Of a stretch of 64,000 bases of DNA, positions 29,394 through 29,602 are shown piece by piece. How positions within the stretch are numbered: position 1 is the stretch's first letter; every line of letters starts with the position of its first letter. Position numbers and translations under genes: made by a program. The notes beneath the pieces are model-generated. The model searched no databases. It saw nothing but the letters and a program-made list of their open reading frames with translations, and had not been told where the DNA came from. Where the stretch lies: sequence record PQ826431.1. One strand, 5' to 3'. The DNA is from a phage.

Positions 29394-29602
29394 ACGTTCA
29401 TCAAGTGTGGTAACAGGGTCGTTGACTTTTGTTAAGAGGGGCTTGCACTGCGGTAGTGTTAGAGACTACTTCTTCAGAGGTTAGCTACCAAAGAGGAAAA
29501 GGAATAGTCTCGGCTCAAGAACTTTTACGCTGAAAGTTGGGCTTGGTCTTAGAGAATGTAGCGGTTCTCTACAATCGTCAGCGTCTCTGTTACCACATTT
29601 AT

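What the first reader, a model, noticed from the sequence alone, without database searches (positions are those of the whole stretch)
29407..29596. Perfect 10-bp inverted repeat bracketing a 170-nt structured leader upstream of the first tRNA
GTGGTAACAG (29407-29416) and its exact reverse complement CTGTTACCAC (29587-29596) flank a segment lying between a promoter-like box and the first tRNA. This could be a processing substrate, a small RNA, or a recombination/regulatory site. The spacers 29755-29988 and 30763-31078 between tRNAs are also long and hairpin-rich (for example CCGTTC-GTTGA-GAACGG, GATGG-CCCCCCCA-CCATC), suggesting additional small RNAs.
Basis: seen in the sequence. Interest (0 to 1): 0.4.

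Follow-up and report, generated by a model that had tools for sequence, protein, structure and literature searches.

The report
New structured RNA in phage tRNA arrays
The inverted repeat is the closing helix of a roughly 200-nucleotide, elaborately folded non-coding RNA gene that heads this phage's tRNA operon; it belongs to a small RNA family, not in Rfam 15 and not annotated as RNA in the records examined, that two unrelated groups of enterobacterial phages carry inside their tRNA gene arrays, and its function is unknown.

Summary
The repeat is real: GTGGTAACAG at 29407-29416 and CTGTTACCAC at 29587-29596. On its own it is no more than chance gives. It is the core of a 27-bp helix (P1, 29403-29432 with 29571-29600) that closes a 203-nt RNA. 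That RNA runs from the predicted start of a sigma-70 promoter (about 29400) to 1-2 nt before tRNA-Met (29603).

The RNA folds far better than shuffles (z = -5.6). It has six helices around a multi-way junction.

The window is a Phapecoctavirus (phAPEC8-like). A covariance model built only from Phapecoctavirus copies finds diverged homologues in two other groups:
- Klebsiella and Citrobacter Stephanstirmvirinae
- N4-like Salmonella Schitoviridae

These homologues always lie inside tRNA arrays, directly after a tRNA CCA end.

On a hand-made alignment of 12 sequences, 93% of cells pair against 40-43% in slid controls, and 42 of 65 pairs show compensatory changes.

Negative results:
- No Rfam 15 family matches.
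- There is no conserved ORF.
- No bacterial homologue was found.

Two loop features recur. L5 and L6 are complementary in all members. The P4 apical loop carries a different 6-nt palindrome in each subfamily, which suggests kissing or dimerisation.

Function is unknown. The closest analogues are T4 RNA C/D and ROOL/GOLLD. Other spacers in the array are also closed by long stems.

The parts
29364..29393 (+). Sigma-70-type promoter: -35 TTGACA 29364-29369, 18-nt spacer with TG, -10 TAGGAT 29388-29393. The predicted start is about 29400, 3 nt before P1.
   Evidence: scores it 10 of 12 with an extended TG. It is conserved in phiWec179, PsgM04F and L134. The promoters at 29951-29980 and 31038-31067 sit equally close to the tRNA genes they precede. 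The start site itself is inferred and not mapped.
29400..29602 (+). The whole structured non-coding RNA (about 203 nt), subfamily A of the family.
   Evidence: Fold z = -5.6. Nine compensatory pairs against relatives that are 80% identical. The model scores 220.6 bits on the + strand and this is the only copy in the window. No Rfam hit. No conserved ORF.
29403..29432 (+). P1 5' strand.
   Evidence: 27 of 30 steps pair with 29571-29600. P1 is 28 bp in subfamily B and 15-16 bp in subfamily C, with unrelated sequence.
29571..29600 (+). P1 3' strand.
   Evidence: helix 1: 18 of 32 column pairs show changes on both sides.
29433..29437 (+). J1/2, the conserved unpaired UAAGA (UAAAA in subfamilies B and C).
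   Evidence: U, A, A and the final A are invariant in all 12 sequences.
29438..29442 (+). P2 5' strand (GGGGC). It pairs with 29546-29550.
   Evidence: helix 2: 4 of 5 pairs are compensatory and 96.7% of cells pair.
29445..29459 (+). P3 hairpin: GCACU, loop, AGUGU.
   Evidence: helix 3: 100% of cells pair and 2 of 5 pairs covary. The closing G-U, C-G and A-U pairs are invariant.
29462..29511 (+). P4 arm. Its basal helix is 29462-29467 with 29506-29511.
   Evidence: helix 4: 4 of 6 pairs are compensatory.
29482..29487 (+). UAGCUA, the only 6-nt palindrome in the 203-nt RNA. It sits in the apical loop of P4.
   Evidence: The equivalent loop carries UGAUCA in all subfamily B members and (C)GUUAAC(G) in all subfamily C members.
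29512..29543 (+). P5 arm: P5a GGCUC/GGGCU, conserved bulge AAG 29517-29519, P5b, and 7-nt loop L5 UACGCUG 29526-29532.
   Evidence: helices 5 and 6: all 6 pairs of P5b are compensatory. The AAG bulge is present in 10 of 12 sequences.
29546..29550 (+). P2 3' strand (GUCUU).
   Evidence: helix 2.
29551..29570 (+). P6 hairpin with loop L6 UGUAGCGG (29557-29564). L6 is complementary to L5.
   Evidence: helix 7: all 6 pairs are compensatory and 100% of cells pair. L5-L6 complementarity of 4-6 contiguous bp is found in all 12 members (longer if flanking stem nucleotides are included).
29603..29677 (+). tRNA-Met (CAU). RNase P cleavage at its 5' end would create the 3' end of the RNA.
   Evidence: ARAGORN and Rfam both call the tRNA. 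The cleavage is inferred from the established role of RNase P.

Best explanation
Shown:
- The inverted repeat is the core of helix P1 of a discrete, conserved, roughly 200-nt structured non-coding RNA gene on the + strand.
- The RNA has a long terminal helix (P1) that joins its two ends and a conserved junction (UAARA).
- It also has a 5-bp P2 enclosing three arms (P3, P4, P5), and a sixth hairpin (P6).
- Homologues occur only inside the tRNA arrays of Stephanstirmvirinae myophages and N4-like Salmonella Schitoviridae.

Inferred, with no transcript data:
- In this phage the RNA is transcribed by host sigma-70 RNA polymerase from the promoter at 29364-29393, starting about 3 nt before P1, as the first gene of the tRNA operon.
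- RNase P cutting at the 5' end of tRNA-Met (29603) releases its 3' end, so both termini are buried in a 27-bp duplex. This should give a stable, exonuclease-resistant RNA.
- RNase III may additionally cut the long duplex. In relatives where P1 starts directly after a tRNA CCA, such a cut could free the tRNA 3' end.
- The conserved core folds compactly through an L5-L6 loop-loop interaction.
- The self-complementary P4 loop lets two copies kiss.
- The released RNA acts in trans as a stable RNA or RNA-protein particle during infection, for example as a scaffold or decoy for a host or phage factor linked to tRNA metabolism. It is not a cis regulator.

The biochemical function is not known.
For: - Fold: -76.8 kcal/mol, z = -5.6. 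Relatives fold to the same architecture.
- Covariation: 9 compensatory pairs between Phapecoctavirus lineages that are 80% identical.
- Homologues: model R1, built only from subfamily A, finds members at 25-59 bits on the tRNA strand. These are in Citrobacter Tr1, Klebsiella phi1_175008, KP2025 and FKP3, IMG/VR L093, and Salmonella FSL SP-058, UTK0002 and TR2.
- 12-sequence structural alignment: 93.0% of cells pair against 68.9% in shuffles and 40-43% when partners are slid. 42 of 65 pairs have changes on both sides. The covariation score is 0.628 against 0.08-0.12 when slid.
- Strand specificity.
- Promoter geometry matches that of the neighbouring tRNA promoters.
- The RNA abuts tRNAs in every phage.
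- Not coding.
- The gene downstream differs between phages: a tRNA in subfamily A and unrelated small ORFs in Klebsiella phi1_175008 and Tr1. This argues against cis regulation.
- L5-L6 complementarity in all 12 members, with CGCU:AGCG in A against UUGC:GCAA in B and C.
- Different palindromes at the P4 tip in each subfamily.
- Precedents: T4 RNA C and D come from its tRNA region (PMC3014915). ROOL and GOLLD lie near phage tRNA islands and oligomerise through kissing loops (PMC12286853).
Against: - There is no expression, end-mapping or stability data, so the start site, RNase P and RNase III steps are all inferences.
- The structural alignment was fitted by hand to the proposed structure, which inflates the pairing percentages. 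The independent evidence is RNAalifold on MAFFT and cross-subfamily detection by a model trained on subfamily A alone.
- There are effectively only three deep lineages, so many 'compensatory cells' reflect few evolutionary events.
- P1 is only 15-16 bp in subfamily C, which is short for RNase III, so RNase III processing cannot be universal.
- Palindromic 6-mers are common by chance (about 3 per 200 nt), and that observation is post hoc.
- In subfamily A, L6 can pair with either L4 or L5, so the tertiary and quaternary model is ambiguous.
- No partner protein was identified. The one Ro-like candidate is absent from this phage.
Confidence: 0.62

Rival explanations
1. Pure processing cassette. 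The element exists only to give RNase III (or another endonuclease) a long duplex that separates the tRNAs or frees their ends. The excised piece is then degraded and has no function of its own.
For: - P1 is a 27-28 bp near-perfect duplex in subfamilies A and B.
- Four other spacers in this array are also closed by 17-27-nt inverted repeats that begin exactly at tRNA 3' ends.
- Similar 90-nt hairpins occur in the Schitoviridae arrays.
- In subfamilies B and C, P1 starts 0-1 nt after a tRNA CCA, so an endonucleolytic cut seems necessary.
Against: - A processing stem needs only the duplex. Here the 140-nt core is what is conserved, with junction nucleotides, covarying P2-P6 and loop complementarity, while the P1 sequence is free to vary.
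- Subfamily C keeps the core with a P1 of only 15-16 bp.
- In subfamily A the RNA sits at the transcript's 5' end, where nothing upstream needs to be released.
Confidence: 0.17
2. Cis-acting leader, riboswitch or attenuator that controls expression or folding of the genes downstream.
For: It lies between promoter and first gene in this phage. In subfamily B it ends about 15 nt before the Shine-Dalgarno sequence of a small ORF. The junction architecture resembles that of aptamers.
Against: - The downstream gene is not conserved: a tRNA in A, unrelated ORFs in Klebsiella phi1_175008 and Tr1, and a spacer then a tRNA in C.
- There is no terminator U-tract or alternative pairing after P1.
- A 27-bp P1 cannot plausibly switch.
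- No riboswitch family matches.
Confidence: 0.06
3. Y-RNA-like partner of a Ro-type (TROVE/DUF2828) protein. The long 5'/3' stem would be the Ro-binding helix.
For: The Klebsiella phages of subfamily B encode a DUF2828/DUF7788 protein with a weak Ro60 vWA match about 1.4 kb downstream, within the same array. Relatives of this protein are annotated 'Ro-like RNA-binding protein' in many phages.
Against: - tBLASTN finds no DUF2828 homologue in the window or in phAPEC8 1-30,000 and 90,000-139,999. The last 7.7 kb was only checked by its annotation, which lists no protein of that size.
- The Klebsiella Ro-like gene has its own YrlA-like matches immediately downstream, at L058:6841-6956 and 6991-7093, though below threshold.
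- The family gives no YrlA hit and has no T-loop module.
Confidence: 0.04
4. DNA-level element: a cruciform, recombination site, origin or packaging signal defined by the inverted repeat.
For: Inverted repeats are classical protein-binding or cruciform sites. The array lies about 1.5 kb upstream of the terminase gene (33149-35224).
Against: - The pairing includes G-U pairs that become A-C mismatches on the other strand and in DNA.
- The minus strand folds at -53.7 against -76.8 kcal/mol.
- Covariation preserves pairing rather than sequence, including internal hairpins that are irrelevant to a DNA site.
- The perfect repeat is at the chance level.
Confidence: 0.03
5. A new self-cleaving or otherwise catalytic RNA that processes the tRNA precursor itself.
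For: The RNA has a compact multi-helix core with invariant junction nucleotides and a probable loop-loop pseudoknot. It directly abuts tRNA ends, where a cut is needed.
Against: No known ribozyme family matches. At 165-200 nt it is large for a self-cleaver. No conserved candidate cleavage site was identified. The idea is speculative.
Confidence: 0.05

Closest known systems
Bacteriophage T4 stable RNAs C and D (species 1 and 2; rnaC, rnaD)
   Same: They are small, stable, structured RNAs of unknown function. They are encoded inside a virulent coliphage's tRNA gene cluster and co-transcribed with the tRNAs, directly adjacent to a tRNA gene (PMC3014915).
   Different: There is no sequence or structure homology: model R1 finds nothing at rnaC or rnaD. 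T4 RNA C is 139 nt and carries a tRNA-like T-arm (GGGUUCGAAUCCCGG). T4 RNA D shows no significant fold (z = -0.8). The present family has no T-arm and has a much longer terminal duplex.
ROOL and GOLLD RNAs
   Same: They are phage- or prophage-encoded, often lie next to tRNA islands, and have elaborate covarying structures and no known function. Kissing loops mediate their homo-oligomerisation (PMC12286853). The family here shares the niche and has self-complementary or mutually complementary loops.
   Different: ROOL and GOLLD are roughly 3-4 times larger (GOLLD often exceeds 800 nt) and have different sequence and architecture. Neither Rfam model hits here. Oligomerisation of the present RNA is only a hypothesis.
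phi29 prohead (packaging) RNA
   Same: The array here lies just upstream of terminase and portal genes.
   Different: There is no Rfam pRNA match. pRNA is known only in phi29-like podophages, where it sits near a genome end and not among tRNAs. The phages here have conventional T4-type large terminases.
RNase III processing stems (rRNA operon stems, T7 early-mRNA sites) and RNase P-defined 3' ends (MALAT1-mascRNA type)
   Same: Long duplexes made from sequences flanking an RNA are excision sites. A downstream tRNA 5' end makes RNase P the 3'-end-forming enzyme. This comparison rests on established knowledge and is not tested here.
   Different: Those stems enclose or adjoin known functional RNAs. 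Here the enclosed RNA is itself the unknown. The C-subfamily stem is short.

Membership tests
Any Rfam 15 family (4227 models, including 6S, Phage_pRNA, YrlA, ROOL, GOLLD, ribozymes and riboswitches) | A covariance-model match at or near the gathering score | tested here: not met
   No hit overlaps 29400-29602 even at E <= 10. No hit at E <= 1 overlaps the B and C members L058:3504-3701, L057:5069-5262 or L194:2484-2655.
tRNA / tRNA-like | Cloverleaf with a T-arm (GUUCRANYC loop) detected by ARAGORN or RF00005 | tested here: not met
   ARAGORN and Rfam call the flanking tRNAs but nothing inside 29400-29602.
Bacterial/phage Y RNA (YrlA) with a Ro/Rsr partner | A Ro-type (TROVE/DUF2828) protein gene in the same genome, usually adjacent | tested here: not met
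   Absent from the window and, by tBLASTN, from phAPEC8 1-30,000 and 90,000-139,999. The last 7.7 kb was checked by annotation only. It is present in subfamily B phages, but there it has separate YrlA-like hits.
Bacterial/phage Y RNA (YrlA) with a Ro/Rsr partner | A tRNA-like module joined to the terminal stem; an RF02553 match | tested here: not met
   No RF02553 hit on any family member.
Retron msr-msd non-coding RNA | Terminal inverted repeats (a1/a2) bracketing the RNA | tested here: met
   P1 brackets the RNA. This feature is generic.
Retron msr-msd non-coding RNA | A reverse-transcriptase gene immediately downstream | tested here: not met
   Downstream are about 2 kb of tRNAs, then small ORFs, terminase, portal, protease and capsid genes. 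No RT domain was found among the ten ORFs scanned.
T4 RNA C / RNA D | Homology to rnaC or rnaD | tested here: not met
   R1 with filters off finds no hit at L227:1909-2172. The folds differ.
T4 RNA C / RNA D | A stable RNA encoded within and co-transcribed with a phage tRNA cluster | tested here: inconclusive
   The genomic position is met. Transcription and stability were not testable with these tools.
ROOL / GOLLD (ornate phage RNAs near tRNA islands) | Match to the RF03087 or RF01998-type models; length above 500 nt | tested here: not met
   No Rfam hit. Length is 165-204 nt.
ROOL / GOLLD (ornate phage RNAs near tRNA islands) | Homo-oligomerisation through conserved kissing loops | not testable with these tools
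   Only sequence hints exist: palindromic P4 loops and L5-L6 complementarity.
RNase III substrate | A duplex of about 20 bp or more without strong antideterminants | tested here: inconclusive
   P1 is 27-28 bp in A and B but 15-16 bp in C. Antideterminants and cleavage were not tested.
Protein-coding gene (annotated as a hypothetical CDS in PsgM04F, the WPEC phages, EP57, Tr1 and FKP3) | An open reading frame conserved across homologues | tested here: not met
   All six frames are interrupted, and no frame is shared between subfamilies. The annotations are seen.

The most novel reading that the evidence does not exclude
The RNA may be the founding member of a compact class of self-assembling phage RNAs. 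It would then be a miniature counterpart of the ROOL/GOLLD assemblies, sharing their unexplained link to phage tRNA islands. The assembled particle would bind or sequester a tRNA-related host or phage factor, for example a tRNA-targeting defence nuclease or a processing enzyme.
Probability: 0.2. Interest if true: 0.75.

Novelty: new variant of a known kind. Interest (0 to 1): 0.55.

Why it matters
Stable structured RNAs encoded among phage tRNA genes (T4 RNA C/D, ROOL, GOLLD) have had no assigned function for decades. A third, much smaller family has practical advantages for study:
- It has a clean six-helix fold.
- It has strong covariation.
- It has simple, testable loop-loop contacts.
- It occurs in easily grown, genetically tractable E. 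coli, Klebsiella and Salmonella phages, which makes it a convenient experimental entry point.

Phapecoctaviruses are common candidates for phage therapy, so an unannotated, highly conserved gene at the head of their tRNA operon is worth knowing about.

The finding also corrects annotation. In the records examined the region is either left blank or called as one or two 'hypothetical proteins'. It also shows that tRNA-array spacers in these phages are organised as stem-closed modules rather than junk.

Tried and rejected
1. The exact 10-bp repeat as a significant signal: rejected, since the count of such repeats equals chance.
2. Rfam families: none matched at gathering score or at permissive E-values.
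3. Collection scans with conserved motifs found only two IMG/VR copies (L093, L134), two metagenome copies (L184, L189) and SP-058-type duplicates. All other matches were chance hits or a marine phage protein gene.
   - IMG/VR.
   - JGI/ENA metagenomes.
   - GTDB genomes.
   - Matches examined.
4. BLASTN against 5,426 E. coli genomes found nothing.
5. The Y-RNA/Ro hypothesis was followed through Pfam, tBLASTN and the phAPEC8 genome and rejected for this phage.
6. Homology to T4 rnaC/rnaD: rejected.
7. Coding potential: rejected.
8. Presence in phi92 and in a Vequintavirinae array: phi92 has none, and SalP219 gives only a dubious 19-bit match overlapping CDSs.
9. A second covariance model from all subfamilies could not be built because the calibration forecast exceeded the limit. 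One multi-source search failed internally.
10. MAFFT alone misaligns the 3' halves of the subfamilies, so a hand-made N-padded alignment was used.
11. T-box-like NCCA pairing, an anticodon-loop mimic in L5, CsrA-type GGA motifs and a k-turn at the AAG bulge were considered by eye. None was consistently present, so none was pursued.
12. A published catalogue of 10,006 unnamed phage structured-RNA candidates might already contain this motif. Its supplements are not held, so this could not be checked.
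Full report
**1. Where the window comes from and what surrounds the finding**

The 3-kb region around the finding is 98-99.5% identical to many Phapecoctavirus genomes (phAPEC8-like E. coli myophages, subfamily Stephanstirmvirinae).

It is a tRNA array. ARAGORN finds ten tRNAs between 29603 and 31645. Rfam adds a tRNA-Tyr at 30304-30388 and a sub-threshold tRNA-Ser/Sec-like gene at 29989-30075.

Three near-consensus sigma-70 promoters sit in the array, at 29364-29393, 29951-29980 and 31038-31067. One intrinsic terminator closes it at 31761-31779.

Downstream lie the large terminase, portal, protease and capsid genes.

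**2. The observation**

The perfect match is in fact 11 bp.

As a bare statistic this is unremarkable. The window has 34 perfect 10-mer inverted pairs within 250 nt, and first-order shuffles give 27 +/- 6.

As RNA, however, the pairing extends to 27 pairs over 30 steps, 29403-29432 with 29571-29600.

The 203 nt from 29400 to 29602 fold at -76.8 kcal/mol, against -53.1 +/- 4.2 for dinucleotide shuffles (z = -5.6).

The reverse strand is 23 kcal/mol worse.

**3. It is a conserved RNA structure**

The segment is present in 71 phage records. Most are at least 99% identical, and one lineage (phiWec179-type, PsgM04F) is about 80% identical.

RNAalifold on an ordinary MAFFT alignment of these predicts the same six-helix fold. 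Nine pairs show compensatory double changes, spread over P2, P3, P4, P5 and P6.

A covariance model (R1) built from these Phapecoctavirus sequences alone scores 220.6 bits on the + strand and 28.9 on the minus strand. It finds no second copy in the window.

Run without filters on relatives' tRNA arrays, R1 detects full-length matches on the tRNA strand in the following phages:
- Citrobacter phage Tr1 (35.5 bits)
- Klebsiella phages phi1_175008 (51.2), FKP3 (33.6) and KP2025 (26.8)
- an IMG/VR contig, L093 (58.7)
- the N4-like Salmonella Schitoviridae FSL SP-058 (36.7), TR2 (26.3) and UTK0002 (25.2)

The Schitoviridae were first noticed through a 34-nt, 94%-identical BLAST match between the Klebsiella and Salmonella copies.

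Each of these sequences folds on its own into the same architecture.

**4. Anatomy (window coordinates)**

- P1: 29403-29432 with 29571-29600
- J1/2 (UAAGA): 29433-29437
- P2: 29438-29442 with 29546-29550
- P3 hairpin: 29445-29459
- P4 arm: 29462-29511
- P5 arm: 29512-29543, with a conserved AAG bulge and the 7-nt loop L5
- P6 hairpin: 29551-29570, with loop L6

I segmented 12 distinct family members by hand and checked each against its source. I then padded them into a common frame and counted pairs.

Results:
- 93.0% of 711 cells form standard pairs. Shuffles give 68.9 +/- 1.2% (0 of 500 reach the observed value), and sliding the 3' partners by 1-3 columns gives 40-43%.
- 42 of 65 pairs show changes on both sides.
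- The covariation score is 0.628, against 0.08-0.12 for the slid controls.
- P5b and P6 covary at every pair, and P2 and P4a at four pairs each.

Caveats:
- The alignment was fitted to the structure.
- There are only three deep lineages.
- MAFFT re-registered part of Tr1's outer P1, which slightly lowers the score.

P1 has unrelated sequences in the three subfamilies but is always a long helix: 27 bp in A, 28 bp in B and 15-16 bp in C.

No reading frame is conserved.

**5. Loop features**

Among all pairs of loops, only L5 and L6 show complementarity well above shuffles, with a mean excess of 1.23.

Every member has 4-6 contiguous pairs centred on GC (which also counts flanking stem nucleotides, finds up to 7). 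The flanks differ between subfamilies:
- (A)CGCUG:UAGCG(U) in subfamily A
- UUGC:GCAA in subfamily B
- UUGC:GCAG or UUGCCA:UGGCAA in subfamily C

This suggests a loop-loop tertiary contact, or an intermolecular one.

The apical loop of P4 carries a perfect 6-nt palindrome that differs by subfamily:
- UAGCUA in A (29482-29487, the only palindromic 6-mer in the 203 nt)
- UGAUCA in all B members
- GUUAAC (CGUUAACG) in all C members

Palindromic 6-mers are frequent by chance, at about 3 per 200 nt. The argument therefore rests on their recurring at the same structural position with different sequences. I rate it as suggestive of kissing-loop dimerisation, not as shown.

In subfamily A, L6 can alternatively pair with the P4 loop.

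**6. Genomic setting and likely biogenesis**

In this phage the -10 hexamer ends at 29393 and P1 starts at 29403. The promoters at 29951 and 31038 sit 8-12 nt before a tRNA-like gene and tRNA-Gly in the same way. The RNA is therefore positioned as the first gene of the operon.

P1 ends 2 nt before tRNA-Met. RNase P, which makes every tRNA 5' end, would therefore also make the 3' end of this RNA. That is an inference from established knowledge.

In subfamilies B and C the RNA begins 0-1 nt after the CCA of tRNA-Cys, a tRNA-like gene or tRNA-Asn, still inside the array.

What follows the RNA differs between phages:
- a tRNA in subfamily A
- non-homologous small ORFs in Klebsiella phi1_175008 and Tr1
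- a spacer, then tRNA-Arg, in subfamily C

This argues against a cis-regulatory role.

The long duplex is a plausible RNase III site in A and B, but is short in C. None of this is supported by transcript data. I found no transcriptome study of these phages.

**7. What it is not**

- No Rfam 15 family matches any member, even permissively.
- It is not tRNA-like.
- It is not related to T4 rnaC or rnaD.
- It is not a retron RNA, because there is no RT downstream.
- It has no counterpart in 5,426 E. coli genomes.
- It has no counterpart, at the stringency of a motif scan for the B/C-type motif, in 185,579 representative bacterial and archaeal genomes.
- It is rare in IMG/VR and metagenomes, with four contigs, all of known subfamilies.
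- phi92 (Justusliebigvirus) lacks it at the equivalent place.
- A Vequintavirinae array gives only a dubious 19-bit match.

A Ro-like DUF2828 protein lies near the RNA in the Klebsiella phages and raised a Y-RNA hypothesis. That protein is not found in the window or in phAPEC8. In the Klebsiella phage it has its own YrlA-like matches directly downstream. I therefore reject that link.

**8. Comparison with known systems**

Functionally and positionally the nearest things fall into two groups:
[quoted passage not shown] The present family shares the niche and the mystery. It is not homologous to any of them and is far smaller than ROOL and GOLLD.

The combination of a terminal helix, a junction and two complementary loops also recalls phi29 pRNA. 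That comparison comes from my own knowledge. Nothing else supports a packaging role.

A 2023 catalogue of 10,006 unnamed structured-RNA candidates from IMG/VR may or may not include this motif, and I could not check.

**9. The other spacers**

Four more spacers are closed by long inverted repeats that begin exactly at a tRNA 3' end:
- 29756-29772 with 29923-29939
- 30170-30188 with 30269-30287
- 30761-30783 with 30824-30846
- 31152-31178 with 31222-31248

Their fold z-scores are:
- -3.6 for 29755-29950
- -3.7 for 30171-30303
- -5.8 for 31153-31250
- only -1.1 for the whole 30763-31037 spacer

The spacer 29755-29950 is conserved at 82% and has one compensatory pair in its closing stem. Its centre is variable.

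The 31152-31248 hairpin is 100% identical in phages that are otherwise about 80% identical. Its stem covaries, and its CU-rich loop is conserved in Tr1, phi92 and L093.

These are separate candidates and are not part of the family described here.

**10. Verdict**

The element is a real, strand-specific, conserved structured RNA gene of a family that is not in Rfam and that I found described nowhere.

I am about 90% confident in 'conserved structured ncRNA gene'. I am about 60% confident in the full account (promoter start, RNase P-defined end, stable trans-acting RNA). I am about 20-30% confident in kissing-loop self-association.

Function remains unknown.

Noticed in passing
window 31152-31248: A hairpin with 27-nt arms exactly fills the gap between tRNA-Gly and tRNA-Gln (fold z = -5.8). 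It is 100% identical in phiWec179 and PsgM04F, although neighbouring spacers there are only about 80% identical. Its stem covaries and its roughly 45-nt CU-rich loop (CUCAUGGUUUUCUCCUUC, resembling an anti-Shine-Dalgarno sequence) is conserved in Tr1, phi92 and L093. Read on the minus strand, the loop is GAAGGAGAAAACCATG, a strong ribosome-binding site plus ATG opening a 12-codon ORF.
   Followed up: partly
window 29756-29939, 30170-30287, 30761-30846: Three more inter-tRNA spacers are closed by long inverted repeats (17, 19 and 23 nt) whose 5' arm starts at the last base of the preceding tRNA. Hairpins of about 93 nt with 25-bp stems also occur in the Schitoviridae arrays (L194:2225-2317, L197:1128-1220). 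tRNA-array spacers in these phages appear to be built as stem-closed modules.
   Followed up: partly
window 29989-30075 and 30304-30388: ARAGORN missed two tRNA genes. One is a long-variable-arm tRNA-Ser(UGA)-like gene directly behind the promoter at 29951-29980. Its only Rfam match is tRNA-Sec at 37.4 bits, below threshold, and it is annotated tRNA-Ser in PsgM04F and pseudo-tRNA-Ser in phi92. The other is tRNA-Tyr (Rfam 39 bits).
   Followed up: partly
window 30490-30570, 31492-31562, about 31680-31730: By eye these are degenerate tRNA-like segments, with acceptor-like stems and good T-arms (for example GCUGGUUCGAAUCCAGC). Neither ARAGORN nor Rfam calls them. Some relatives annotate 'tRNA-Pseudo' or 'tRNA-OTHER' features in this array. 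The segment after the last tRNA-Met is 90% conserved in phi92.
   Followed up: no
window 29364-29404; also 29951-29985; L058:2765-2800: Each tRNA-operon promoter carries an inverted repeat that pairs the spacer between -35 and -10 with the sequence just after -10 (TTGACAAACGTATCCT with AGGATACGTTCATCAA). By eye the arm sequences differ between promoters and between phages while the pairing appears to be kept. This could be a structural feature of the promoter DNA or of read-through RNA.
   Followed up: no
L058:5127-6557 and L058:6841-6956, 6991-7093 (Klebsiella phage phi1_175008): A DUF2828/DUF7788 protein with a weak Ro60-vWA match lies inside the tRNA array and is followed by two sub-threshold YrlA (Y RNA-like) matches (36.4 and 34.3 bits). 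This looks like a phage Ro-Y RNA module. tBLASTN finds relatives of the protein in 711 phage records.
   Followed up: partly
L194 (FSL SP-058, KC139517.1): The tRNA features annotated in this GenBank record are displaced by about 1.1 kb from where Rfam finds the tRNAs (for example 1363-1436 found, 2472-2548 annotated). As a result 'tRNA-Lys' is drawn over the structured RNA.
   Followed up: yes
L002:3033-3137, L057:5027-5275, L196:1433-1721 and hits H64-H66, H80: Automatic annotation places one or two short 'hypothetical protein' CDSs over the structured RNA in several deposited genomes (PsgM04F, Tr1, FKP3, WPEC1/4/6, EP57). No frame is conserved, so these calls are probably spurious.
   Followed up: yes
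L202:5513-7021 (phAPEC8 5513-7021): A 1.5-kb stretch of phAPEC8 has no annotated gene and sits between a predicted terminator and the next CDS. It lies outside the window and was not examined.
   Followed up: no
L058:2985-3346 and L057:4690-4905: By eye, another spacer of more than 200 nt is shared between the Klebsiella and Citrobacter phages, lying upstream of their tRNA-His/Cys region (…TACGAGTTGTTTGTCAGCAACTACGAGAGTGG…). It may be a further structured RNA. I noticed no counterpart in the window.
   Followed up: no
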